From IMG/VR virus record IMGVR_UViG_2541047913_000008, positions 1 through 18,542 of that record: a stretch of DNA of 18,542 nucleotides. The stretch is one strand, 5' to 3'. The notes under the pieces were generated by a model, which searched no databases, was not told the origin of the DNA, and saw only the letters and a program-made list of their open reading frames with translations. Position 1 is the stretch's first letter, and every line of letters starts with the position of its first letter. Below are positions 2,717 to 18,542 of this stretch, piece by piece. The DNA is from a virus. Its lineage: Duplodnaviria > Heunggongvirae > Uroviricota > Caudoviricetes. A program made the translations under genes and the position numbers.

Positions 2717-2727
2717 GTCCATAAGAA

Positions 2728-2747
2728 AGCCCCTCCGGAGAGGGGCT
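2728..2747. repeat. Perfect 8-bp inverted repeat with 4-nt spacer (AGCCCCTC-cgga-GAGGGGCT)
   Basis: Read directly from the sequence. Could be a hairpin or a dimeric protein-binding site. Confidence 0.5.
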
Positions 2748-3061
2748 GGAGAGTGGCGCTATGTGCCATTGCATGGTGCCGGGTGCCTCCCGGTGAGTTC
2801 AGTATCAGCACCTGAACCCGCACAGAAAGGATAAGGGTCGGTGACAAAACACCAGTTGCTGATTGCCCCTCCGCACAGGGGGATTCACCATGCCAGTTTC
2901 TTTTAACAAACTCCCCGCAAACCAGACAACAGTCAACCGCCTGAATTGTGAGGTATTTAAAAATTTCAACGGGTAACTGATACCCTGCTAATCGCCTGAT
3001 GCTTTCTTTTTCAGCAACGGGGAAGCAACAACCACCACACCCACCAGCCGCCCATTTACCA

Positions 3062-3470: not shown

Positions 3471-3863
3471 CTAATCATTTTTTACTTTTTTGGGCAGCCA
3501 GTCGTCCATCTCCAGCCTTACACCCAGCATCGACAGACATCCGTCAATAAATCCTTCAGCAATCTGCATCTCAATTCGTATTGCCTTTTCGCTCTTCTTT
3601 CTTGTTCTGGCAATCTGCCTTTTTGATATGCGCAGCAGATAATGAGCTACCAGCAGCGAATACTCGTCCGGTTTTTTCTTCTTCAGGCGCGTAAGGCAGT
3701 TTTCGATGATAAGGCCGTCATCATCGCTGCAGGCCGGGCGAGGTTTAGCGGTGGATGGTAAAAGGCCTTTAAATCCAGCAGCTATCGGAGAATAGTCCAC
3801 CCCGGCGTTACCACTTGCCGCCCATGCCCCCCAGCGTTCGAGAACCATCTGAATATCACGCAT
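3471..3863 (-). CDS. Q: Late-gene antiterminator Q (QuuD/phage-21-type family)
   Basis: Start MRDIQMVLERWGAWAA..AAGFKGL..RLKKK...RLEMD resembles the QuuD-type Q proteins of E. coli prophages as I recall them. ATG at 3863 has a GGAGA ribosome-binding site; the ORF-track start at 3878 is a TTG. Lies between the replication/DUF968 genes and the terminator. Confidence 0.7.
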   Translation of the reverse strand: MRDIQMVLERWGAWAASGNAGVDYSPIAAGFKGLLPSTAKPRPACSDDDGLIIENCLTRLKKKKPDEYSLLVAHYLLRISKRQIARTRKKSEKAIRIEMQIAEGFIDGCLSMLGVRLEMDDWLPKKVKND

Positions 3864-3880
3864 CAACTTTCTCCACAAAA

Positions 3881-4922: not shown

Positions 4923-5180
4923 TCACGCAGTAAACTCCTTCACCAGCGTTTCAAACTGGCTTACCTGGCCTTCCAGTTCCGCCACGCAATCCACCAGCTC
5001 ATCCACCGCCTTTTGTGTGCGGTGTTTTGCCTGCAGCAGATCACGAAGCGCCGGAGTAAGCTGCTTGCGGAGCGTATCCTTTGCCACGCTCATTTTTTCC
5101 ATCTGTTCAGCACAACGAAGCATCTCCTGCGCCTGCCGACGAAGTTGTTCCGGTGAAACAGTGGTTGTTCTGTTATTCAA
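4923..5180 (-). CDS. Hypothetical coiled-coil protein
   Basis: 85-aa ORF. TTG start overlaps the DnaB-like stop (TTGA). Heptad-like charged sequence. The real start could instead be an internal Met. Confidence 0.4.
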   Translation of the reverse strand: MNNRTTTVSPEQLRRQAQEMLRCAEQMEKMSVAKDTLRKQLTPALRDLLQAKHRTQKAVDELVDCVAELEGQVSQFETLVKEFTA

Positions 5181-6577
5181 AATAAACGCTCCGTTTTACT
5201 GCCCGACATGCGGTTATTGCTGTATCTGCGCGGATTGCTCGGCGTCATGGGTGAGGAAAGAACCTGAGCACTCTCCTGGTCCACAGGCAGAAAATGTCCG
5301 TTATGAAAACGCCGGTAAATGGTCCCGAGTGTGCCATTACGCTGTTTCGTAATGTTGATTTCTGCTATGCCTCTGGCCTGTGTATCCGGGTTATACACCT
5401 CATCCCTGTAAAGCATCAGAATGATGTCGGCATCAGCCTCTATTTCCCCGGAGTTTTTCAGGTCTGAGTTCATGGGACGTTTATTGGGTCTGGATTCCAC
5501 GCCTCGGGAGAGCTGGCTCAGAGCAATCAGCGGGAAACCGCCGGATTTTGCCAGGCTTTTAAGTCCCTTTGAGATTTCCCCCACCGCAAGGTCGTGACGC
5601 CCCGTGCTGCGGGTTTTAATCAGGCCGAGGTAATCGACCACCACCAGCGCCGTTTCCGGGTGTTTCATCCGGTGGTGCTTCGTGGTTGCACATATCTCAT
5701 CAATGGTCAGGTTTGCCTGGTCCACCATCCAGATATTACGCCCCGTCATTCGTCCCACGCCCTGCGAGAAACGCGCCCAGTCTTCATCTTCAAAACGGGC
5801 AACAGACTTAAGACGGGATACCGGCATTCCACCGGCAGCAGACACCATACGTTCACCAATCTGGATGTTCGCCATCTCCATGGTGAACAGAAGCACGCCA
5901 TGCCCCTGCTCAGTCACCTTGTCGATGATGTCCAGCGCAAGTTCGGTTTTCCCCATCGAAGGACGGGCGGCAATGAATACCAGGTCTCCGGGCTCCATAC
6001 CGCCCGTTTTTGCGTCCAGTTCATCAATACCGGTCATCAGCGCCCTGGATTTCTCCAGTCCCTGATTGCGGCATTCAACACGGTCGACCACTTCCGGAAG
6101 GACATCATCAATGTGAACCGGCTGAATGACGCCCTTTCCGGTCGACAGTGAGGCCATCATGTTCTGCACATCCTTCAGGGCATCCTCGGCTGCTTCACAG
6201 GTATACGCATCACGTAAATTCTGTAATGCTTCAGTCAGTGTTTTTTCTGCATCGCGCAGTGCGGCATTGCGCCGCAACGCTGCGACATAGTGCTCCAGTG
6301 AAGACTTCACCCAGGTTTTGCGTCCGGTGTCGGTAATCACCGGGGCAAGTTCCGGCATCTCATTGCACAGCAGTACGGGGTCAATGACGCCGGATATGCG
6401 AGCCTGTCTGCAAATCCCCGCGTAAATATCCCGGTACTGACGCACAAAAAATACATCCGCCGGAAGTGTGGCCAGAATATCCATCACTTCCGGATCGGCC
6501 CCACGCAGAAAAAACGCACCGATGACAGCGCCTTCCAGGTCATCGTTACGCCATGCCGGGGTGTTCTGGCTGGTCAT
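5177..6577 (-). CDS. DnaB-family replicative DNA helicase
   Basis: 466 aa. Walker A in FIAARPSMGKTELALD; DnaB-like N-terminal domain; ATG with GGAGG ribosome-binding site; 4-nt overlap with the upstream gene. Confidence 0.8.
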   Translation of the reverse strand: MTSQNTPAWRNDDLEGAVIGAFFLRGADPEVMDILATLPADVFFVRQYRDIYAGICRQARISGVIDPVLLCNEMPELAPVITDTGRKTWVKSSLEHYVAALRRNAALRDAEKTLTEALQNLRDAYTCEAAEDALKDVQNMMASLSTGKGVIQPVHIDDVLPEVVDRVECRNQGLEKSRALMTGIDELDAKTGGMEPGDLVFIAARPSMGKTELALDIIDKVTEQGHGVLLFTMEMANIQIGERMVSAAGGMPVSRLKSVARFEDEDWARFSQGVGRMTGRNIWMVDQANLTIDEICATTKHHRMKHPETALVVVDYLGLIKTRSTGRHDLAVGEISKGLKSLAKSGGFPLIALSQLSRGVESRPNKRPMNSDLKNSGEIEADADIILMLYRDEVYNPDTQARGIAEINITKQRNGTLGTIYRRFHNGHFLPVDQESAQVLSSPMTPSNPRRYSNNRMSGSKTERLF

Positions 6578-7473
6578 GCGGCAACACCTCCGATACGAGA
6601 ACGGTAGCTGGGCCAGTTAAACGACAACCAGTTGCGCCCGCCATCGGTGATCCTGTCGGCAATCCGGGGACTGATGAACGCCCACAATTCTTCCGGTGAA
6701 AGATTGCTGATCAAGATAGTTGGCAAAATACCCTCATACCGGGCATTGATAATTTCCTGCAAAATGGCCATTTCAGCCGCACTGCCAAACTGAACGCCGA
6801 CTTCGTCGACAATCAGCAAATCCAGTGACGCATAATGCTCAATGACGTCATCCGCTGTTTTTTCACTGTCATTCCGCCAGCAGTTTTTCACAGCCCGGGT
6901 AAGGCGCATCACGTCGGTGATCTCCACACTGGCCAGATAGTTACGGATGATGTGTTTTGCCATTGATACCGCCAGATGATTTTTCCCGGTACCGCAACTG
7001 CCGGTCATAACAAGACTGGTACCGTTCTCCAGCATATCTGGCCAGTTCTCCGCATAGCGGCGACAGGCCGCAAGATTTCTGGCTGCGTCAGGATTAACCT
7101 CCAGATAATTATCAAACTCGCAGTCCCGAAAACGCAGAGCAATTCCGGCGTTATCAGTCAGTTCTTCCGCCTTGAGGGACGACAGTTCCATGGTCAAATC
7201 ACTGGCCTCAGCGATCAAGCAGTCAGGGCAGCATGAAATTTTTTCTCTGTCCTCGCCATTACGATCGATCCACACCAGTATATGCGTACGATATTTACCG
7301 TGTTTTTCGCAATATCCGCGACCTTCACGCATCAGGCAGGAACGATAAGGCCATGGCTTTTCGCCCTTCTGAGCAAATGCAATCTCTGCCCGTAACTCAT
7401 CCATTTCTGCCCGTAAATCATCCATTCGCGCCTGTAGTCTTGTTTGTTTCTCACGTTGGTCAATCATCATCAT
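6574..7473 (-). CDS. DnaC/IstB-like AAA+ helicase loader with N-terminal Cys/His cluster
   Basis: Walker A LVMTGSCGTGKNHLAVS; Walker B-like LLIVDEVG. ATG at 7473 follows a GAGGTG ribosome-binding site; the track start at 7482 is a GTG. N-terminal CEKHGKYRTH...CCPDC. Confidence 0.75.
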   Translation of the reverse strand: MMMIDQREKQTRLQARMDDLRAEMDELRAEIAFAQKGEKPWPYRSCLMREGRGYCEKHGKYRTHILVWIDRNGEDREKISCCPDCLIAEASDLTMELSSLKAEELTDNAGIALRFRDCEFDNYLEVNPDAARNLAACRRYAENWPDMLENGTSLVMTGSCGTGKNHLAVSMAKHIIRNYLASVEITDVMRLTRAVKNCWRNDSEKTADDVIEHYASLDLLIVDEVGVQFGSAAEMAILQEIINARYEGILPTILISNLSPEELWAFISPRIADRITDGGRNWLSFNWPSYRSRIGGVAA

Positions 7474-7483
7474 CGCTGTCACC

Positions 7484-8476
7484 TCAGAATGTCAATTTGT
7501 TACTGGATTTACCAAATTTGTCAGACATGGCTCCCAGGCCAGCCAGGACATCGACCTGTCGCTGTCGCCCACCTCCGTGAGCGGCTGGCTGTTGCCAGTA
7601 ATCTTCGAAGTGACGATCGGGTCCAAAGAACGTCGCAGCCTGCTTCACGAACTGTGTGCCGGTATTTCCTGTAGCACGTACCCAGGCGGCATACCGCTTC
7701 ACGCCATCAAGCATGGTCTCCGGTTTTATTCCCTCCCTGATACGGGCTTTCCAGGCTTTGAAGGCTGCTGACTTGGAATTGCCACCAGCACGTTTGGGAT
7801 ATTCCTGCCAGGCCTGTTCAAATTCCGGTGAATATTCCTGTCTGGCAGAACGCGCTGGTGCAGACGCGTCAGCGGATGCGCCAATAGTGTTTTTAGTCTC
7901 CGTTGTAATCTCTGTAGTAATCTCTGTATTTGTATCAACATTCGGCGTATCCCCTGTTCCGTTACGACGTCGGGGGGTGTTCCGTTTTAACGTAATAGCT
8001 GTATCGCTGATTGCATTATTGCTGTTACTTTCTGGCGAAACAGAAGAAGGTGTGGTGATGGCCGCAATTGCCTGTGGGTTGATCCCGACAAACAAAATAT
8101 TGCTACATTTCACCCCATCGAGCATTTCCACCGTGCGTAAATCCAGAGTAATAAACCCGGCATCACGGAGACGCTTCAGCGCATCTGCGGTTTCCCTTTT
8201 CCCGAAACCAAACTGCTCAGCAAACGCCTGGTAGCTTCTTTGCAGTTTGTCGCCCTGAAAACGCTTGCGATATCCCAGCAACGCTCCGGTGTGCTCATCC
8301 CTGACCTCTGTCGGGCGGTACCAGTAAACGATCTCTGAAAGCAGAGCGATAGCCGTCGCATCCGGACGCCCACTGGGTAGTCGAATATATTTCCACCAGG
8401 TCGCAGGTGTAACATTGCCGGAAATATTAATTTGACCAATAGCCATAACTTCCGGTGTGGGGGCGTAACGGCTCAT
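7484..8476 (-). CDS. Replication initiator (O-like, replisome organiser)
   Basis: 330 aa, ATG with GGAAGGAGG ribosome-binding site, directly upstream of the DnaC-like and DnaB-like genes. Contains a low-complexity linker (TNTEITTEITTE) encoded by direct DNA repeats, as in the lambda O gene. Confidence 0.6.
   Translation of the reverse strand: MSRYAPTPEVMAIGQINISGNVTPATWWKYIRLPSGRPDATAIALLSEIVYWYRPTEVRDEHTGALLGYRKRFQGDKLQRSYQAFAEQFGFGKRETADALKRLRDAGFITLDLRTVEMLDGVKCSNILFVGINPQAIAAITTPSSVSPESNSNNAISDTAITLKRNTPRRRNGTGDTPNVDTNTEITTEITTETKNTIGASADASAPARSARQEYSPEFEQAWQEYPKRAGGNSKSAAFKAWKARIREGIKPETMLDGVKRYAAWVRATGNTGTQFVKQAATFFGPDRHFEDYWQQPAAHGGGRQRQVDVLAGLGAMSDKFGKSSNKLTF
7897..7986. repeat. Iteron-like direct repeats inside the O-like gene (candidate origin of replication)
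   Basis: Three ~12-bp units TCTCCGTTGTAA / TCTCTGTAGTAA / TCTCTGTATTTGTA (about 7897-7935), plus two copies of GTTCCGTT about 30 bp apart (about 7949-7986). Confidence 0.4.
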
Positions 8477-8772
8477 ACAACCTCCTTCCGCAGCATGAGA
8501 ATTGTGTAGCCACGCGCAGGTTGTAGTCTGGCTTTTGCATCAATAGTAAGCGTTGCAATTTTTCGGATATGAAGATAACCAGCTCTTTCCAGTGCCAGGG
8601 TTTCCCTGAATATCGCTTGCTTAGAACAACAGCAGAAATCAGCAAGCACCTGATGATCAATAACTCTCTCGCCTTCACCGTCTGAAGAACCCGACATCAA
8701 AACACGCAACATAATCAGGCGCTGAATCGGGTTATCGAAAGCACATCCGCACACAAACTGAAAACAGTTCAC
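8473..8772 (-). CDS. Hypothetical protein
   Basis: 99 aa. GTG start with GGGAGG ribosome-binding site; 4-nt overlap with the flanking genes. Confidence 0.4.
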   Translation of the reverse strand: MNCFQFVCGCAFDNPIQRLIMLRVLMSGSSDGEGERVIDHQVLADFCCCSKQAIFRETLALERAGYLHIRKIATLTIDAKARLQPARGYTILMLRKEVV

Positions 8773-8993
8773 GCCACACCTCCCAGACGCTTAAACATTT
8801 TTCCGGAGCAAAAGGCTATAAGCGGCATACTGATGCGGTAATTACGGCCCAGCGGTTCACAAATCACCTTCTGACATTCACGGTCAACCAGGCTGACACG
8901 TAGAACATGCCCTGCAGGCGTGGTGTACCACTGACCAGGACGAGGACAACGGAAAGTCTGATTGGTAAACCGTTTGAAAATATTCCGGATCAT
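8769..8993 (-). CDS. Hypothetical protein
   Basis: 74 aa. ATG overlaps the stop of the Rha-like gene (ATGA). Confidence 0.4.
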   Translation of the reverse strand: MIRNIFKRFTNQTFRCPRPGQWYTTPAGHVLRVSLVDRECQKVICEPLGRNYRISMPLIAFCSGKMFKRLGGVA

Positions 8994-9535
8994 TTGCGCC
9001 CCCTTACCTCTGAAGGGTTCAGCGACAAATTTATGAGACTGGCCAGTAGCGCCGCGTCGTTGATGCGGTCATACAGACTTACAGCCAGCGGGGATTCGGC
9101 TTTTGCCAACATGGGATAAAGCTGCTGCAGCCAGACCTGATGAATTGATGAAATGTAGGAATAGAGAACGCTGGCGTTATGTGCAACGTCGCTCAGTACA
9201 GAGGGATTTGAAAGCTGTTTCTCCATCTGGTTAAAGGCATTGATGTATGCCTCTTTGAACTGGGCAGCACGTTTACCCGTGAAACCCATAGCAAGAAACG
9301 CAAAGCCGTCGCGGGTTATTTGATAGCAAGGTAGTTTGCGGCCTGTGCAATCGGTGTAATCACTCACCGAAAAATTGCGGGAAGTGAATGATGCAGAGCA
9401 TTCAAGCGTGCGGATCTTTTTCAGTACATCGTCATGACGTTTGGAGAAGAAGTTGGCAACAGCCAGGGATGAAGTAACAGCCTGACCATCAACGATGGCA
9501 ATTTCAGGTTGAGTGAGGGTTGGGATCGTAGCCAT
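8990..9535 (-). CDS. Rha-family phage regulatory protein
   Basis: Motif VTSSLAVANFFSKRHDDVLKKIRTL matches the Rha N-terminal signature. ATG at 9535 has a GGAGG ribosome-binding site. The ORF-track start at 9835 adds 100 residues rich in Ala/Gly/Ser/Pro that do not look like protein, so I prefer 9535. Confidence 0.6.
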   Translation of the reverse strand: MATIPTLTQPEIAIVDGQAVTSSLAVANFFSKRHDDVLKKIRTLECSASFTSRNFSVSDYTDCTGRKLPCYQITRDGFAFLAMGFTGKRAAQFKEAYINAFNQMEKQLSNPSVLSDVAHNASVLYSYISSIHQVWLQQLYPMLAKAESPLAVSLYDRINDAALLASLINLSLNPSEVRGRK

Positions 9536-9699
9536 GATGGCAGCCTCCGTTGACTGTGGAAAACTTCCACCACCGGAGCTGCGAAACTCACTGGTGGCAG
9601 ACTGAACAGGGTTCGCAGTACCGGCGTCAACGGAGACCGGCGAGCCTTTCGGCTCCCCTGCCCAGCCCACCATAATTCTGGCGTGCGTGAGCGCGGACG

Positions 9700-9721
9700 A
9701 TAAAAAAGACGCTGGCGCGTC
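9700..9721 (-). terminator. Minus-strand intrinsic-terminator-like hairpin between the cro-proximal genes and the replication genes
   Basis: On the minus strand: GACGC-gcca-GCGTC followed by TTTTTTAT (plus 9701-9721). Short 5-bp stem. Confidence 0.35.
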
Positions 9722-9918
9722 ATATATCGCCGTTGACAATTCCGGGCTGCGACCCCCGGCACCCGCTTTATAAGGTGCCTGAGCAGTGTAACGTCCCGGA
9801 ATTGCAGAATCAATATTTGGTCTTGAAATGATCATATAGCTGCTGATATCTTTAGAACTGTTCTTGGATGTTTCGGAGCCGTTTTATGCGAAACAGCTCC
9901 CCGTTATTGATGTTGAGT

Positions 9919-9944
9919 GAGCCGGGTTACTCCCGGCTTTTTTT
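9919..9944 (+). terminator. Plus-oriented intrinsic terminator abutting the stop of the 235-aa gene (oop-like arrangement)
   Basis: Stem GAGCCGGG/CCCGGCTT region (9919-9937) with 5-nt loop, followed by TTTTTTT (9938-9944). Antisense to the early-right operon, as the lambda oop terminator is. Confidence 0.5.
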
Positions 9945-10651
9945 CATCGCTGCCAACCAATAACCTGAAATAACCCCATTTTCGGGTGATACCAGCGAGT
10001 CCCTCGCGGTTCTGCTTCCTCCATAACCCGATAAAAAGCAGCCATAAACGGTTCCACAGCAACAATTGCGCGACGTGACAACAATCCGTCCGGCGTCATG
10101 AACTCATGTGTGTCTGTAGGAATTTGATAGGCGTTCACCAGATTGCGGCATTTATCATCTGACAAACCGGTTTTTGCTTTCAGTTGGCGATATCCGGCAT
10201 AGCCCTCACGAATAGTGCCCTTTTTAATTTGCTCGACTGTTTCAGCAACGTGGCTGACTTTTTCTTCCACCTGAGTGATCCGTTTCTGTTGGCGAACGGC
10301 TTCAAGAGCCATCGCGGCAACCATTTCGATTTCGCTCATTGGCTTACGGATCTGTTCTTCCAGTTCGCGCCAGCGATCTACCAGGCGAGCTGTGAATTCA
10401 GGACAGAGCTGTGCGACGACAATGATGCTGTCGCGCTTACCTCGTTCACCTTCGAATACATACGCGCTAGAAAATCGGCGAGGCCCAAGTGATTGTTTAT
10501 TCTCAATTTCCACAGTCTGTGGAAATTGGATGATTCCCTTTTTAGCCAGTGTTTCAATAGTTCTCTTAACACTATCTGGTCGGCTTCCCACCAGCTCTGC
10601 GATCTCAACGCTGGTCATGGATGCTTTGCCGTTAAAAATTGCGGTGTTCAT
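9944..10651 (-). CDS. Phage regulatory protein in the cII position, Rha/antirepressor-like N-terminus
   Basis: 235 aa. ATG overlaps the cro-like stop (ATGA); AGGAG ribosome-binding site. N-terminal segment SVEIAELVGSRPDSVKRTIETLAKKGII looks like a helix-turn-helix. Family assignment tentative. Confidence 0.5.
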   Translation of the reverse strand: MNTAIFNGKASMTSVEIAELVGSRPDSVKRTIETLAKKGIIQFPQTVEIENKQSLGPRRFSSAYVFEGERGKRDSIIVVAQLCPEFTARLVDRWRELEEQIRKPMSEIEMVAAMALEAVRQQKRITQVEEKVSHVAETVEQIKKGTIREGYAGYRQLKAKTGLSDDKCRNLVNAYQIPTDTHEFMTPDGLLSRRAIVAVEPFMAAFYRVMEEAEPRGTRWYHPKMGLFQVIGWQR

Positions 10652-10938
10652 TGTTTATCTCCTGCGTGTATTCCATCCGCTCTGTGTGGTGAACTTGGAT
10701 TTAGGCTTTTGCGTAACAAGTTAGGAATTCCATCTTCAGGGTGAGGATAAAGATCTGGCCTTAAGCCATGAGGCGTAACCTTCCATGCAACTACTTCACA
10801 TACTCGTAAAACGAAACGAGCAGGAATTGTGCTTTTTGAAAACCACTGATTCACCGCTTGCGGCGTCACACCAAGATTTCGCGCTATGGCATTTTGCGCA
10901 ATTAATGCACGAAGTTTGTCGTAATCATTTCCTTCCAT
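10648..10938 (-). CDS. cro: Cro-like (YdaS-type) helix-turn-helix regulator
   Basis: 96 aa, divergent from cI. Helix-turn-helix IARNLGVTPQAVNQWFS. Weak ribosome-binding site. Confidence 0.6.
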   Translation of the reverse strand: MEGNDYDKLRALIAQNAIARNLGVTPQAVNQWFSKSTIPARFVLRVCEVVAWKVTPHGLRPDLYPHPEDGIPNLLRKSLNPSSPHRADGIHAGDKQ

Positions 10939-11071
10939 AACAAAACACCAATATTAACTTTATAAATCAAGAATACATCAAGTTTAAATTAACATGCAAG
11001 TTACAAAAGGATCGAATACACTAAAATCAAGTAAAGATTTATCCTTGTAAAGAAACCCACAGGATTTGGTC
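10939..11071. promoter_or_regulatory. Divergent cro/cI control region (right-operator-like promoters and operators)
   Basis: 133-bp AT-rich spacer between divergent cro-like and cI genes. Repeated motifs AAATCAAG / CATCAAG / AAATCAAG and CTTGTAAAG. Confidence 0.55.
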
Positions 11072-11761
11072 ATGAAGAACGTCAAAAACACGGAAAATCG
11101 AATAGCCGCGATGCTGAAAGCAAAAGGATGGACTCAGGCTCAACTGGCCCGCAAGTTAGGTGTGAGTGCGCAATCAGTGCAGTACTGGACAACAGGAAAA
11201 ACATTTCCACGGAGTGATAAGCTCGCGCATTTATCAGAGATTAGCGGTTATCCACAATCCTGGTTCTTAGGTGAAGACTCCTCACCAACCTTTTCCTCGC
11301 AAGAGAAACACCAGACAAGAACAGATAGCGTCGTATTTAATGTCCTTGATGTTGAGTTTAGTTGCGGTGATGGAACTCATGTCCGTGGTGACTTGATAGA
11401 TGTAGTGCGCTCAATAGAACTTGATCCTGAATATGCCCGACGTCTTGTTGGAAATCGGGCATTCAAAAATATAGAAATAGGTAACGCCAGAGGAGACAGT
11501 ATGGCTCCCACAATCTCACCTGGCGACCTTCTTTTTCTTGATAAGACAGTAACTTATTTTGATGGCGATGGTATTTATGCATTTTGTTTTGATGGAGAAT
11601 GCTACGTGAAAAGGCTTCAAAAAATTGGAAGCAAAATCATGGTGTTATCTGATAACCCCAATTATCAACCATGGAGCATCGAAAAAGAGGGGTTAGCTCT
11701 GCTTTATATCCAGTCTAAAGTGATCTCATCAGTACCATTCAACATAAACAGATTTGGTTAG
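11072..11761 (+). CDS. cI: cI-type prophage repressor (N-terminal helix-turn-helix plus C-terminal S24 LexA-like autopeptidase)
   Basis: Helix-turn-helix WTQAQLARKLGVSAQSVQYW; S24 motifs GDSMAPTISPGDLLFLD and YVKRL. ATG at 11072 with AGGA ribosome-binding site; the track start at 11066 is a TTG. Confidence 0.85.
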   Translation: MKNVKNTENRIAAMLKAKGWTQAQLARKLGVSAQSVQYWTTGKTFPRSDKLAHLSEISGYPQSWFLGEDSSPTFSSQEKHQTRTDSVVFNVLDVEFSCGDGTHVRGDLIDVVRSIELDPEYARRLVGNRAFKNIEIGNARGDSMAPTISPGDLLFLDKTVTYFDGDGIYAFCFDGECYVKRLQKIGSKIMVLSDNPNYQPWSIEKEGLALLYIQSKVISSVPFNINRFG

Positions 11762-11853: not shown

Positions 11854-11906
11854 CGCACCATCAATTATAACTTGATTTGATTCAATTTAAAATTGTTGGC
11901 GGATAT

Positions 11907-12455
11907 ATGAAGACACTAAAAGCAACTCCAGAAACAACTAATTTTATCAACTGCGGCTGTGTTACGCTTAAGGGCTTAGAACTTGATTCCTTTGCATTAA
12001 ATATTGCAAATTTGCTAAGTGCTGTACGCACATTCCATCTTCTGGATTGTGCTCGCTCAAAGGAACTGGGCATTGAGGTAATGGAATTTATCCATGAATA
12101 TGCTCTATCTGCTGCTTCTCCTGCACAGCAAAAACAATCCTTCCCTGAAAGCTGGCTGGTTAACCTTCGCACCCAACGCGAAGCCTGCGGCTTAACAACC
12201 GCCGAACTCGCCAGGCTGCTCGATCTCGATGAAGAAATTATCATCCAGTGGGAGAGCGGAGAGTACGAACCAACCATCAGCATGCTTATCCCACTGGCAA
12301 ATATTCTTGGCTGCGATCCGATGTGCCTGTTAACTGGTGAGGTTACTCCTCCGGAGAAACCAAAAAGTGAGGAGCAGCAACACCATGACGCATCTCAACA
12401 AGTTTGCCCCTTATCTCGCGAAGCTCTTCTGCGGAAGAACCAATACCAATGGTGA
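11907..12455 (+). CDS. XRE-family helix-turn-helix protein with unrecognised ~95-aa N-terminal domain
   Basis: ATG at 11907 (the track start at 11877 is a TTG). C-terminal helix-turn-helix LTTAELARLLDLDEEIIIQWESGEYEPTISMLIPLANILGCDPMCLL. First gene after the promoter. Confidence 0.55.
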   Translation: MKTLKATPETTNFINCGCVTLKGLELDSFALNIANLLSAVRTFHLLDCARSKELGIEVMEFIHEYALSAASPAQQKQSFPESWLVNLRTQREACGLTTAELARLLDLDEEIIIQWESGEYEPTISMLIPLANILGCDPMCLLTGEVTPPEKPKSEEQQHHDASQQVCPLSREALLRKNQYQW

Positions 12456-17228: not shown

Positions 17229-18542
17229 ATGGATAAAGTCAAATATCCAACAGGCGTCGAAAACCACGGCGGCACATTACGCATCTGGTTTAATTTTAAA
17301 GGTAAACGTGTCAGGGAAAATCTTGGTGTCCCTGACACTGCCAAGAACAGGAAGATCGCCGGGGAACTGCGGACATCGGTATGTTTTGCCATCCGCACAG
17401 GAAGCTTTGATTATGCTGCACAGTTCCCTGACTCCCCCAACCTTCAGGCTTTTGGGGTAAGTAAAAAAGAAATTACGGTGAAGGAACTTGAAGAAAAGTG
17501 GCTGGATCTGAAACGAATGGAAATCTCTGCAAATGCATTCAATCGCTATGAATCCGTTGCAAGAACGATGGTTTCGAAAATTGGAGGCAGTAGACTGGTG
17601 TCATCGGTAACCAAAGAGGAATTGCTGTATATCAGGAAAGATTTGCTGACCGGGTATCAGAATTCAACGAAAAACAAAGCAGCAGCAAAAGGACGGAGCG
17701 TCGTTACTGTAAATTATTACATGACGACAATCGCTGGAATGTTTCAGTTTGCTGCAGATCACGGTTACTTAGAAGCAAATCCCTTCCAGGGAATTAAGCC
17801 TCTTAAAAGAGCCAGGGCAGAGCCAGATCCGCTAACTCGTGACGAATTTATTCGCCTGATAGATGCTTGCCGACATCAGCAGACGAAAAACCTGTGGTCA
17901 TTGGCTGTGTACACAGGAATGCGTCACGGTGAACTGGTCTCCCTGGCCTGGGAAGATATCGATCTGAAGGCAGGAACAATTACCATCAGGCGCAATTATA
18001 CGAAACTTGGTGAGTTCACTCTACCGAAAACTGAAGCAAGCACAAACAGGGTTGTGCACCTTATCCAGCCCGCTATCAGTGTCCTGAAAAATCAGGCTGA
18101 AATGACAAGACTGGGTAAGCAGTACAACATCAAGGTGCAACTACGTGAATATGGACGTTCAGTGAACCATGAATGTACTTTCGTGTTTAACCCTCAAGTG
18201 GTTAGAAAAAGCGAACAGGTAGGTTTTGTCTACAAAGTCGATTCTGTAGGTGACTCATGGGAAACAGCCATTAAGCGTGCAGGGATCAGGCATCGAAAGG
18301 CATACCAGTCACGACACACTTATGCGTGCTGGTCATTATCTGCCGGAGCAAACCCAAGCTTCATTGCCAGCCAGATGGGCCATGCAAGTGCCCAGATGGT
18401 ATTCAATGTATACGGAGCATGGATGACTGACAGCAATGCAGAACAGATCGCAATGCTGAATCAGAAGCTGACAGATTATGTCCCAATGATGCCCCATAGT
18501 CACCAAAGTGACACCAGAGGCTTATTAAAATCAGTAAGTTAA
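17229..18542 (+). CDS. int: Tyrosine site-specific integrase (phage integrase family)
   Basis: 437 aa, GGAGG ribosome-binding site. Catalytic-domain motifs (RHGEL...HRKAYQSRHTYACW...GHASAQMVFNVYGAW). Stop codon is the last three bases of the window. Confidence 0.9.
   Translation: MDKVKYPTGVENHGGTLRIWFNFKGKRVRENLGVPDTAKNRKIAGELRTSVCFAIRTGSFDYAAQFPDSPNLQAFGVSKKEITVKELEEKWLDLKRMEISANAFNRYESVARTMVSKIGGSRLVSSVTKEELLYIRKDLLTGYQNSTKNKAAAKGRSVVTVNYYMTTIAGMFQFAADHGYLEANPFQGIKPLKRARAEPDPLTRDEFIRLIDACRHQQTKNLWSLAVYTGMRHGELVSLAWEDIDLKAGTITIRRNYTKLGEFTLPKTEASTNRVVHLIQPAISVLKNQAEMTRLGKQYNIKVQLREYGRSVNHECTFVFNPQVVRKSEQVGFVYKVDSVGDSWETAIKRAGIRHRKAYQSRHTYACWSLSAGANPSFIASQMGHASAQMVFNVYGAWMTDSNAEQIAMLNQKLTDYVPMMPHSHQSDTRGLLKSVS

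What the first reader, a model, noticed from the sequence alone, without database searches (positions are those of the whole stretch)
9536..9943. About 400 bp of ambiguous coding between the cII-position gene and the Rha-like gene, with convergent terminators
The 281-aa track ORF begins at 9835, but its first 100 residues are low-complexity and a strong GGAGG/ATG start exists at 9535, so 9536-9943 is probably not coding for Rha. The interval has a plus-oriented terminator abutting the upstream stop (9919-9944), positioned like the lambda oop antisense RNA terminator, and a minus-oriented hairpin plus U-tract (9700-9721) that would stop early-right transcripts before the replication genes. I see no N-like antiterminator gene, so how replication genes get transcribed is an open question. 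A nut-like site, an RNA-based antitermination element or a separate promoter are all possible.
Basis: partly seen in the sequence, partly recalled or inferred. Interest (0 to 1): 0.45.

Follow-up and report, generated by a model that had tools for sequence, protein, structure and literature searches.

The report
P4-type RNA immunity cassette before Rha
The "ambiguous" 400 bases hold two known phage regulatory RNA genes, an IsrK/seqA-like small RNA and a C4/CI-like antisense RNA, with their own promoter, inside the start of the Rha gene; this is the RNA switch already described in phages P4, P1 and Gifsy-1, so it is a new copy of a known device.

Summary
On the minus strand, 9536-9835 holds a complete RNA regulatory cassette. 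It has a promoter (9812-9784), an IsrK/seqA-like sRNA (9778-9702) and a C4/CI-like RNA (9677-9590). Both RNAs score above the Rfam gathering thresholds. Two single-stranded elements of the C4-like RNA are complementary to two boxes in IsrK. They are also complementary to two boxes just upstream of the Rha start, one of which abuts the Shine-Dalgarno GGAGG of ATG 9535. These pairings covary across 19 diverged homologs (99% of cells paired, 13 of 15 pairs with changes on both sides). The cassette aligns box for box with the P4 immunity region and with Gifsy-1 isrK-orf45-anrP. The Rha start at 9535 corresponds to the P4 kil start. The 281-aa ORF from 9835 corresponds to P4 eta and matches Pfam Phage_ASH, so the region is probably both RNA-coding and translated. 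By analogy, translation of the long ORF on pR transcripts would carry RNA polymerase into the replication genes without an N protein. The plus-strand terminator is real, belongs to the upstream gene's context, and its function is unknown. Verdict: known kind, new member.

The parts
9784..9812 (-). Promoter of the cassette, the counterpart of P4 PLE and Gifsy-1 PisrK. The -35 is TTGATT (9812-9807), the spacer is 17 bases, the -10 is TACACT (9789-9784), and +1 is G 9778.
   Evidence: Read from the sequence. TTGAT and a TAnAnT -10 sit at the same distance from the IsrK 5' end in diverged homologs. The consensus scan missed it because it matches only 8 of 12 positions. The start site is inferred by homology to Gifsy-1, not mapped here.
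9702..9778 (-). IsrK / P4 seqA-like small RNA: two 5' hairpins, a single-stranded spacer and an intrinsic terminator (stem 9721-9708, U6 9707-9702). It carries two decoy boxes: GUCGCAG in the hairpin-2 loop (9753-9747) and GUCAACGG in the spacer (9737-9730).
   Evidence: Rfam RF01394 isrK, 58.7 bits against a gathering score of 50, full length. Terminator found, fold. The boxes covary with the C4 elements: 99.3% of cells paired and 13 of 15 pairs changed on both sides.
9590..9677 (-). C4 / P4 CI-like antisense RNA: a 17-bp closing stem enclosing two hairpins. Its two antisense elements are the hairpin-2 loop UCUCCGUUGAC (9636-9626) and the 3' bulge CUGCGAA (9618-9612). AUG 9673-9671 in the 5' strand of the stem is the counterpart of the Gifsy-1 orf45 start.
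   Evidence: Rfam RF01695 C4, 78.8 bits against a gathering score of 45, full length. Fold -47.8 kcal/mol, z = -4.3. In the closing stem, 11 of 17 pairs change on both sides and 99.4% of cells are paired.
9579..9585 (-). Distal target box UUCGCAG, the first part of the P4 seqC equivalent. It is complementary to the C4 bulge element.
   Evidence: helices 9 and 10: 5 of 7 pairs change on both sides.
9541..9554 (-). SD-proximal target box GUCAACGGAGGCUG. It is complementary to the C4 loop element and includes the Shine-Dalgarno GGAGG (9548-9544) of the Rha start.
   Evidence: A 14-bp complementarity. Seven of 8 core pairs change on both sides across homologs. The 8-mer GTCAACGG or its complement occurs only three times in the window, all in this interval, against 0.57 expected. 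The minimum-energy fold of the full leader sequesters it (z = -5.8).
8990..9535 (-). Rha-family protein, 181 aa from ATG 9535. This is the position of Gifsy-1 AnrP and of P4 kil. It is the first gene of a chain of overlapping genes that runs into the replication genes.
   Evidence: Pfam Phage_pRha, E = 4.5e-31. The SD-ATG junction is identical to the P4 kil start. Four-base overlaps link 8990-9535, 8769-8993, 8473-8772 and 7484-8476; a one-base gap then leads to 6574-7482, which overlaps 5177-6577 by four bases. The downstream genes are a replication initiator, a DnaC-like loader and a DnaB-like helicase.
8990..9835 (-). Long ORF of 281 aa (Ash plus Rha), the counterpart of P4 eta. Its ATG at 9835 lies upstream of the internal promoter, so only transcripts from an upstream promoter (pR) can encode it. 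It reads in frame through IsrK, C4 and the target boxes into Rha.
   Evidence: Pfam Phage_ASH, 65.5 bits, residues 16-111. BLASTP against P4 eta, E = 8e-15. Frame 0 has no stop in 14 of 20 leaders. In four homologs the long ORF starts with an ATGA overlap on the upstream gene's stop. PGAP annotates the long form in related genomes. The SD at 9835 is weak, and translation is not shown.
9919..9946 (+). Plus-strand intrinsic terminator, GAGCCGGG-TTACT-CCCGGCTT followed by T7, abutting the stop codon of the 235-aa gene. It is not part of the cassette.
   Evidence: It is conserved in L157 and L158 although the flanks are about 76% identical. In L159 and L160 a different hairpin plus a T-rich tail sits at the same place and in the same orientation. 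It is absent upstream of the cassette in all other contexts. On the minus strand the same hairpin has no U-tract.
9823..9852 (+). Candidate sigma-70 promoter: TTGAAA, 18 bases, TATCTT, with TG upstream of the -10. It could drive a plus-strand RNA of about 88 nt ending at the plus-strand terminator.
   Evidence: Consensus scan (3 hits against 3.1 expected, so not significant alone). Both hexamers and the spacing are kept in L157 and L158 while the spacer diverges. The same bases encode the N-terminus of the long ORF on the other strand, so the conservation is ambiguous. The predicted RNA folds with z = -3.6. There is no transcript evidence.
9944..10651 (-). Upstream 235-aa gene in the cII position, a Rha/Ant-like HTH protein. 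Given as context only.
   Evidence: PHROG 63 anti-repressor Ant, E = 3e-46. Pfam Phage_pRha is below threshold. PGAP calls it a Rha family transcriptional regulator.

Best explanation
The interval is a P4/P1-type RNA immunity cassette built into the 5' end of the Rha gene.

1. Shown by homology and covariation. A promoter inside the long ORF transcribes IsrK, most of which ends at its own terminator. Read-through RNA contains the C4/CI-like RNA. The loop and bulge elements of that RNA pair with two boxes just upstream of the Rha start. One box includes the Shine-Dalgarno sequence, so Rha is not translated. IsrK carries copies of the same two boxes.

2. Inferred from P1 and P4. With Rha untranslated, Rho-dependent polarity and the chain of overlapping genes would keep the downstream replication genes silent on transcripts from this promoter.

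3. Inferred from Gifsy-1. Free IsrK acts in trans on the read-through RNA. It competes for the C4 elements and so switches translation on.

4. Inferred from P4 eta. After induction, transcripts from pR enter from upstream and carry ATG 9835. Ribosomes translating the 281-aa ORF run through the IsrK terminator, C4 and the boxes. This would prevent those structures and Rho from acting, so RNA polymerase reaches Rha and the replication genes without an N-type antiterminator.

The confidence of 0.75 is for the explanation as a whole. Taken separately: identity of the cassette about 0.97, SD masking of Rha about 0.8, and the eta-like read-through step about 0.5.
For: - Rfam matches above gathering score for isrK and C4, adjacent, on one strand and in the right order.
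- The same pair lies immediately upstream of the Rha start in all 20 homologous loci scanned, from Escherichia, Citrobacter, Edwardsiella, Serratia, Pantoea, Aeromonas and others.
- Three-way complementarity in the window.
- Covariation: IsrK boxes with C4 elements, 99.3% paired against 65% in shuffles and 33-45% when slid, with 13 of 15 pairs changed on both sides. C4 stems plus C4-target pairs, 92.2% paired, with 32 of 60 pairs changed on both sides and 0 of 500 shuffles as high.
- Complementarity within a locus against between loci: 10.1 against 5.2 bases and 9.05 against 4.6 bases.
- The full leader folds with the SD paired.
- Box-for-box alignment with the P4 immunity region and an identical SD-ATG junction with kil. 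The same holds for Gifsy-1. There, the compensatory mutants G28A/C162U and G31A/C159U (PMC4825925) fall in the IsrK loop box and the C4 bulge element.
- Frame 0 is kept open, matches Phage_ASH and resembles eta. ATGA coupling occurs in homologs.
- The eta/kil mechanism is as summarised in PMC10111431.
- Rha starts an overlapping-gene chain into the replication genes.
Against: - There are no transcript, processing or translation data for this element. Every functional step is carried over from P4, P1 or Gifsy-1.
- ATG 9835 has no convincing SD and, unlike several homologs, is not coupled to the upstream gene; a 108-nt gap separates them.
- Six of 20 homologs, and Gifsy-1 itself, have the frame broken. 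The long ORF is therefore not essential to the cassette.
- In P4 the controlled terminator is Rho-dependent. No Rho site can be predicted here.
- It is unknown whether a ribosome suppresses the intrinsic IsrK terminator.
- The open frame in the IsrK half could partly be inherited with conserved RNA blocks. The window is open in two frames there.
- The primary P4 papers on eta/kil were not available. That step rests on a secondary summary and on my recollection of Forti et al. 1999.
Confidence: 0.75

Rival explanations
1. The cassette controls only the Rha/antirepressor-like protein, as in Gifsy-1 and P1, and does not gate the replication genes. The open frame from 9835 would be a by-product of conserved RNA sequence, and Pfam Phage_ASH would be largely a translated-RNA family. 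pR transcripts would simply read through a weak IsrK terminator.
For: - In Gifsy-1 the cassette lies downstream of antQ, far from the replication genes, and the terminator is leaky.
- The peptide encoded over the boxes is hypervariable, because the boxes follow RNA covariation.
- The frame is broken in 6 of 20 homologs.
- ATG 9835 has a weak SD.
- The obsolete P4 'cI protein' CDS hits Phage_ASH exactly where the CI RNA lies.
Against: - Frame 0 carries 16 stops in total against 59 and 95 in the other two frames, across 20 leaders chosen without regard to ORFs.
- Indels are compensated to keep the frame.
- The long ORF starts with an ATGA overlap on the upstream gene in four independent contexts.
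- P4 eta and kil are reported as translated and functional, and Gifsy-1 orf45 was seen by western blot.
Confidence: 0.3
2. The plus-strand promoter-like site and terminator (about 9859-9946) encode an oop-like antisense RNA. It would pair with the pR transcript between the 235-aa gene and the long ORF and control its processing or stability.
For: - A strong plus-strand terminator.
- A hairpin plus T-rich tail at the same position and orientation in diverged contexts, one of them with a different stem sequence.
- A candidate extended -10 promoter whose hexamers and spacing are kept while the spacer diverges.
- The predicted 90-nt RNA folds with z = -3.6.
Against: - No Rfam family matches; the best hit is sroD at 24.5 bits against a gathering score of 50.
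- Promoter-like hits are no more frequent than chance.
- The conserved hexamers also encode the N-terminus of the long ORF on the other strand.
- The RNA would overlap the upstream gene only at its stop codon, and would not cover the ribosome-binding region of ATG 9835.
- The hairpin could instead stop stray antisense transcription or act as a 3' stabiliser of the upstream mRNA.
Confidence: 0.3
3. The interval is ordinary protein-coding sequence: a genuine N-terminal 'Ash domain' of a 281-aa Rha/Ash protein, as it is annotated in genomes and in the Stx-phage literature. The RNA matches would be incidental.
For: - PGAP and the PHROG families cover the long ORF.
- Pfam Phage_ASH matches it.
- PMC8951638 describes Rha/Ash domain proteins in Eru6, Eru7 and Eru9 Stx phages.
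Against: - Two Rfam matches above gathering score, with full-length structures.
- Heavy compensatory covariation in stems and in three-way intermolecular boxes, which no protein constraint explains.
- A conserved internal promoter and an intrinsic terminator lie inside the supposed domain.
- Experimental proof of the RNAs exists in P4, P1 and Gifsy-1.
- The frame is broken in 6 of 20 homologs while the RNA elements stay intact.
Confidence: 0.03

Closest known systems
Satellite phage P4 immunity region (PLE - seqA - CI RNA/seqB - seqC, nested genes eta and kil)
   Same: - Same order of elements on one strand.
- The Rfam isrK and C4 models hit P4 seqA (8615-8692) and CI (8420-8507).
- The same two-box logic holds in P4: TTCACAGG/CCTGTGAA and GTGAGAA/TTCTCAC.
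- The SD-ATG junction GGAGGCTGCCATCATGGCTAC is identical, so Rha ATG 9535 corresponds to the kil start.
- A long ORF starting upstream of the internal promoter reads in frame through everything: eta, 199 aa, BLASTP E = 8e-15.
- In both, the cassette sits upstream of replication genes.
   Different: - The protein fused after the junction is a Rha domain, not the 65-aa Kil.
- The host element is a lambdoid prophage with CI/Cro and Q, not a satellite.
- The upstream promoter would be pR, not PLL.
- The long ORF is not coupled to the upstream gene.
- P4 has an extra stretch of about 95 nt between seqA and CI.
- The Rho-dependent site timm has no identified counterpart here.
Salmonella Gifsy-1 isrK - orf45 (STnc1160) - anrP locus (Hershko-Shalev et al. 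2016, PMC4825925)
   Same: - Direct homolog: IsrK, a C4-like region, both box pairs, SD and ATG all align.
- The downstream protein is a Rha/antirepressor-like protein.
- The IsrK terminator lies inside the operon.
- The AUG in the C4 5' stem is the orf45 start.
   Different: - In Gifsy-1 a one-base difference puts orf45 out of frame, so it stops at AUGA on the anrP start. Here the frame continues into Rha.
- Gifsy-1 has the locus downstream of antQ, next to the lysis genes. Here it lies between the cro/cII-position genes and the replication genes.
Phage P1/P7 immI: c4 antisense RNA, a1/b1 and a2/b2 sites, icd-ant
   Same: - Same RNA family (Rfam C4; the c4-a1b1 motif RF03163 overlaps IsrK in homologs).
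- The antisense RNA is cut from the same transcript as its target.
- One target box covers the ribosome-binding site of the first downstream gene.
- Variable boxes define specificity types, as between P1 and P7. Here at least a dozen box variants are seen.
   Different: - The target gene here is Rha itself rather than a small icd gene upstream of ant.
- P1 details are from my own knowledge and from the review PMC12197685; they were not tested here.
- Which C4 element is called a' and which b' is uncertain. A GenBank APSE-7 annotation labels them in the opposite order to the one I first assumed.
Lambda oop RNA / N-nut antitermination
   Same: The position is between the cII-position gene and the replication genes. 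A short antisense RNA ending next to the upstream gene is conceivable.
   Different: No N-like protein and no nut or put family was found. The plus-strand RNA is only predicted and would barely overlap the upstream gene. The element that is demonstrably here works by antisense pairing and translation, not by modifying RNA polymerase.

Membership tests
Rfam RF01695 C4 antisense RNA (P1 C4 / P4 CI) | Covariance-model score at or above the gathering score, over the full length | tested here: met
   78.8 bits against 45, model positions 1-87 of 87, at 9677-9590 on the minus strand.
Rfam RF01695 C4 antisense RNA (P1 C4 / P4 CI) | Long closing stem enclosing two hairpins, supported by compensatory changes | tested here: met
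   Closing stem: 11 of 17 pairs change on both sides and 99.4% of cells are paired. Hairpin 1: 4 of 5 pairs change on both sides. Fold z = -4.3.
Rfam RF01695 C4 antisense RNA (P1 C4 / P4 CI) | Two exposed elements complementary to two sites upstream and two sites downstream on the same transcript, one downstream site covering a ribosome-binding site | tested here: met
   Loop element 9636-9626 pairs with 9554-9541 (which includes the SD) and with 9737-9730. Bulge element 9618-9612 pairs with 9585-9579 and with 9753-9747.
Rfam RF01695 C4 antisense RNA (P1 C4 / P4 CI) | Mature RNA released by processing of the leader transcript, and repression in trans | not testable with these tools
   Needs a northern blot or RNA-seq and genetics. 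Shown only for P1, P4 and Gifsy-1 STnc1160.
Rfam RF01394 isrK / P4 seqA | Covariance-model score at or above the gathering score; two 5' hairpins plus an intrinsic terminator | tested here: met
   58.7 bits against 50, model positions 1-77 of 77, at 9778-9702 on the minus strand. Terminator. Hairpin 1: 4 of 6 pairs change on both sides.
Rfam RF01394 isrK / P4 seqA | Own promoter directly upstream, and location immediately 5' of a C4-like RNA and an antirepressor-type gene | tested here: met
   Conserved -35 and -10 at a fixed distance. The same arrangement is found in 20 of 20 homologous loci scanned. Promoter activity itself was not tested.
Rfam RF01394 isrK / P4 seqA | Hfq binding and trans-activation of the read-through mRNA | not testable with these tools
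   Experimental property shown in Salmonella only.
P4 eta/kil-type nested genes (Pfam PF10554 Phage_ASH) | An ORF that starts upstream of the internal promoter and reads in frame through seqA, CI and seqC into the gene that starts at the controlled ribosome-binding site | tested here: met
   ORF 9835-8990. Phage_ASH 65.5 bits against a cut-off of 26. BLASTP against eta, E = 8e-15. Frame open in 14 of 20 homologs.
P4 eta/kil-type nested genes (Pfam PF10554 Phage_ASH) | Translational coupling of the long ORF to the upstream gene | tested here: not met
   The window has a 108-nt gap between the upstream stop (9944) and ATG 9835, and a weak SD. ATGA coupling is present in L002, L003, L008 and L012.
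P4 eta/kil-type nested genes (Pfam PF10554 Phage_ASH) | Translation of the long ORF prevents termination, so that upstream-promoter transcripts escape RNA immunity | not testable with these tools
   Known for P4 from a secondary source. It needs nonsense mutants and transcript assays here.
Lambda-type N/nut antitermination | An N-like protein gene next to the repressor, and boxA/boxB nut sites | tested here: not met
   No N-like Pfam or PHROG hit among the ORFs tested, and no such RNA family in Rfam scans. The search was not exhaustive, since N proteins are small and diverse.

The most novel reading that the evidence does not exclude
In this class of lambdoid prophages (the Rha/Ash-type early regions, such as those described for Eru-type Stx phages), a P4-like RNA immunity cassette inside the first gene of the replication operon acts as a second, sequence-specific immunity layer. 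It would also take the place of N antitermination. Replication genes would be expressed only when ribosomes translating the long Ash-Rha ORF on pR transcripts override the IsrK terminator and C4 pairing. The many box variants would then define cross-immunity groups among co-resident prophages. In addition, an unannotated oop-like plus-strand RNA would end at 9946.
Probability: 0.2. Interest if true: 0.6.

Novelty: new member of a known kind. Interest (0 to 1): 0.33.

Why it matters
- Annotation. Genomes annotate these bases as part of a 281-aa "Rha family" or "ash family" protein. A paper on Stx-phage regulatory regions (PMC8951638) treats the "Ash domain" as a protein domain of unknown function. 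Here it is shown to coincide with an internal promoter, an sRNA and an antisense RNA that are homologous to the P4 immunity system.
- Mechanism. This gives a concrete and testable answer to how such N-less early operons could reach their replication genes.
- Specificity. The variable boxes suggest RNA-level specificity types among the many related prophages. Part of the surrounding 2.2 kb (8900-11100) matches in 1245 of 5426 complete E. coli genomes, mostly at 80-90% identity.
- Limit. The mechanism itself is not new. It was worked out in P4, P1/P7 and Gifsy-1.

Tried and rejected
- Rfam, permissive scan of 9500-10050. Nothing credible appeared for the plus-strand RNA; the sroD, PrrF and SorX/Y hits are far below threshold and driven by the terminator. 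No nut- or put-type family was found.
- Consensus promoter scan. It is not informative on its own, with 3 hits against 3.1 expected, and it missed the cassette promoter.
- Terminator upstream of the cassette in other contexts. I looked for a conserved plus-strand terminator there and found none, so that hairpin is not part of the cassette.
- Upstream 235-aa gene. I considered that it might have its own IsrK/C4 leader. It does not; there is only one cassette in the window.
- Primary P4 papers. I tried to read Sabbattini 1995 and Forti 1999 by DOI and PMC id, but they are not held. One literature search on P4 eta/kil returned only irrelevant papers.
- Phage_ASH as the P4 epsilon antirepressor, as one preprint uses it. 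Rejected: true epsilon hits PF25738, and Phage_ASH hits the ORF overlying the CI RNA.
- The a'/b' naming I first assumed conflicts with a GenBank annotation. I therefore describe the elements by position, as loop and bulge.
- tRNA scan: none found.
Full report
**Context.** The window is the early region of a lambdoid prophage.
- On the plus strand are an integrase (17229-18542), early-left genes, and an S24/HTH CI-type repressor (11066-11761).
- On the minus strand, in order, are:
  - a Cro/YdaS-like gene (10938-10648);
  - a 235-aa Rha/Ant-like HTH gene (10651-9944);
  - the finding's interval;
  - a Rha-family gene (9535-8990);
  - two small genes, a replication initiator, a DnaC-like loader and a DnaB-like helicase;
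  - DUF968, a Q-like antiterminator (3878-3471), and a SASA-family carbohydrate esterase (2494-497).
- From Rha to the helicase the genes overlap by four bases, apart from one one-base gap. They therefore form one translationally linked operon.

**Checking the observation.**
- The 281-aa ORF runs 8990-9835.
- GGAGG (9548-9544) precedes ATG 9535.
- A plus-strand terminator (stem 9919-9939, T7 to 9946) abuts the stop codon of the 235-aa gene.
- A minus-strand hairpin (9721-9708) is followed by U6.
- The terminator scan as a whole is not significant (7 hits against 3.1 ± 1.9). The two hairpins are credited on other grounds, given below.

**What the interval is.**
- Rfam at gathering thresholds places two adjacent RNA genes on the minus strand: isrK (9778-9702, 58.7 bits against 50) and C4 antisense RNA (9677-9590, 78.8 bits against 45). 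Both are full length.
- A promoter lies directly upstream: TTGATT, 17 bases, TACACT, at 9812-9784. It is conserved at the same distance in diverged homologs.
- The same isrK plus C4 pair sits immediately upstream of the Rha start in all 20 homologous loci scanned. These come from Escherichia, Citrobacter, Edwardsiella, Serratia, Pantoea, Aeromonas and others. In some of them, Rfam's c4-a1b1 motif overlaps the 5' half of IsrK.

**The RNA interaction network.**
- The C4-like RNA folds as a 17-bp closing stem around two hairpins (z = -4.3). Two elements are left exposed.
- The hairpin-2 loop UCUCCGUUGAC (9636-9626) is complementary to GUCAACGGAGGCUG (9554-9541), which contains the Rha Shine-Dalgarno sequence. 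It is also complementary to UGUCAACGG in the single-stranded spacer of IsrK.
- The 3' bulge CUGCGAA (9618-9612) is complementary to UUCGCAG (9585-9579) and to GUCGCAG in the hairpin-2 loop of IsrK (9753-9747).
- The 8-mer GTCAACGG or its complement occurs three times in the 18.5-kb window, all in this interval, against 0.57 expected.
- The boxes differ between homologs but always match within a locus. Mean longest complementarity is 10.1 bases within a locus against 5.2 between loci for the loop and SD box, and 9.05 against 4.6 for the loop and IsrK box.
- On a 19-sequence alignment, the IsrK-C4 pairs are 99.3% paired. Shuffles give 65% and slid registers give 33-45%. Thirteen of 15 pairs change on both sides.
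- The C4 stems together with the C4-target pairs are 92.2% paired. Thirty-two of 60 pairs change on both sides, and 0 of 500 shuffles reach this.
- The minimum-energy fold of the full leader has the SD paired with the loop element (z = -5.8).
- Rha proteins that are 94-97% identical can sit behind leaders that are only about 71% identical. This is the pattern expected of exchangeable specificity cassettes.

**Relation to the characterised systems.**
- *Phage P4.* The isrK model hits seqA (8615-8692) and the C4 model hits the CI RNA (8420-8507).
  - The window and P4 align box for box.
  - The junction GGAGGCTGCCATCATGGCTAC is identical.
- *Gifsy-1.* It aligns in the same way.
  - The published compensatory mutants G28A/C162U and G31A/C159U (PMC4825925) fall in the IsrK loop box and, by position, in the C4 bulge element.
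  - In Gifsy-1 the IsrK terminator is leaky and the read-through mRNA is translationally silent.
  - Short IsrK in trans activates translation of orf45 and of the coupled anrP.
  - A processed RNA, STnc1160, corresponds to the C4 region.
  - That paper itself calls IsrK a structural homolog of P4 SeqA.

- In 14 of 20 non-redundant leaders, chosen only by Rha homology, the Rha frame has no stop across all 294 nt upstream of the start. Total stops in the three frames are 16, 59 and 95.
- The AUG in the C4 5' stem (9673) is in frame with ATG 9535 in 14 of 20.
- The frame-0 translation matches Pfam Phage_ASH at 65.5 bits.
- In P4, Phage_ASH hits the obsolete "cI protein" CDS that overlies the CI RNA. 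The true epsilon protein hits another family.
- The P4 ORF in that frame, from the MMM start (8767) to the stop at 8168, is 199 aa. It spans both RNA elements, and its last 65 aa start at MATTLTP. This agrees with the published description of eta and its nested gene kil.
- PMC10111431 summarises the mechanism as follows. A constitutive promoter lies inside eta. CI and seqA cause early termination of its transcript. Kil is translated on read-through. Full-length Eta is made only from an upstream promoter. Eta translation prevents termination.
- The window's 281-aa ORF resembles eta (BLASTP E = 8e-15). Its ATG 9835 lies upstream of the internal promoter.
- In four homologs the long ORF begins with an ATGA overlap on the upstream gene's stop.
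- In the window it is uncoupled and has a weak SD, which is a point against.
- The Gifsy-1 version and 6 of 20 homologs have the frame broken, so the long ORF is optional for the cassette.

**Most likely mechanism.**
- *Shown by homology and covariation.* The internal promoter makes IsrK and, by read-through, a leader. The C4-like RNA from that leader masks the Rha SD.
- *Inferred from P1 and P4.* Untranslated Rha leads to polarity, so the replication genes stay off for transcripts from this promoter.
- *Inferred from Gifsy-1.* IsrK in trans competes for the C4 elements and activates translation.
- *Inferred from P4 eta.* After induction, pR transcripts carry ATG 9835. Translation of the long ORF through the terminator, C4 and the boxes would let RNA polymerase reach the replication genes.
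- No N-like gene and no nut or put RNA was found, although that search was not exhaustive.

**The plus-strand terminator.**
- It is a strong terminator in the plus orientation only. On the minus strand the hairpin has no U-tract.
- It is not part of the cassette. Most phage matches to the interval stop at about 9816, and other contexts lack such a hairpin upstream of the cassette.
- The 9817-9990 segment travels with the 235-aa gene in 263 E. coli genomes, followed by different downstream cassettes.
- Its position and orientation are conserved. The same stem occurs in relatives that are 76% identical. A different hairpin plus a T-rich tail occurs in a third context.
- A candidate promoter at 9823-9852 keeps its hexamers and spacing. 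It overlaps the N-terminal codons of the long ORF, and such hits are at chance frequency.
- A plus-strand RNA of about 88 nt is therefore possible but unproven. The hairpin could equally act as an insulator against antisense transcription, or as a 3' stabiliser of the upstream mRNA.

**Verdict.** The finding is real and is explained by a known system: P4 immunity, P1 immI and Gifsy-1 isrK. It is a new member in a lambdoid early-right operon. The practical value lies in annotation, because the "Ash domain" of Rha/Ash proteins coincides with an RNA cassette. It also gives a testable model for gating replication genes without N.

Noticed in passing
window 2717-2922 (-): Rfam STnc100 (143 bits against 47, full length) lies between the Q-like gene (3471-3878) and the SASA-family esterase gene. 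This is the place where a short late-promoter leader RNA (lambda 6S or StxS-like) would be expected.
   Followed up: no
L109 2258-2446 and 3124-3312; L112 1633-1821 and 2255-2443; L012 1299-1493 and 2258-2446: Some relatives carry two tandem isrK plus C4 cassettes, each in front of its own Rha/Ash-type gene. L155 also has an 'ash family protein' followed by a second Rha/Ash gene.
   Followed up: partly
L097 2264-2503: This leader looks like a recombinant. Its IsrK loop box (TTGGCGT type) does not match its own C4 bulge element (ACGCGAA); complementarity is 4 bases against about 7 elsewhere. Its loop element and SD box are of the window's type.
   Followed up: no
L156 (phage P4) 8168-8584 (-) and 7888-8175 (-): The RefSeq P4 record still carries the obsolete 'cI gene product (137 aa)' CDS, which overlies the CI RNA and hits Pfam Phage_ASH. 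The real epsilon hits PF25738. A satellite-detection study used PF10554 as its epsilon marker.
   Followed up: yes
window 9499-9535 and loci L075-L154: Homology of the leader cassette extends about 36 nt into the coding region (MATIPTLTQPE). In some E. coli genomes a different protein follows this junction. Rha proteins that are 94-97% identical sit behind leaders about 71% identical.
   Followed up: partly
window 9944-10651 (-) and loci L155, L157-L160: The 235-aa Rha/Ant-like gene in the cII position is followed, in different E. coli prophages, by a Rha/Ash gene, an 'ash family' gene or a BRO-N gene. There is always a plus-oriented hairpin and T-rich tail right after its stop codon.
   Followed up: partly
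window 11877-12455 (+): A CII-like regulator (PHROG 4836, E = 8e-77) lies on the plus strand just beyond the CI-like repressor, on the early-left side. The gene in the classical cII position is Rha/Ant-like instead.
   Followed up: no
window 9778-9536 (-), frames 0 and 1: In the window and in L083 the leader has no stop in two of three frames. This weakens any single-sequence argument for coding. The case for the open frame rests on the comparison across homologs.
   Followed up: yes
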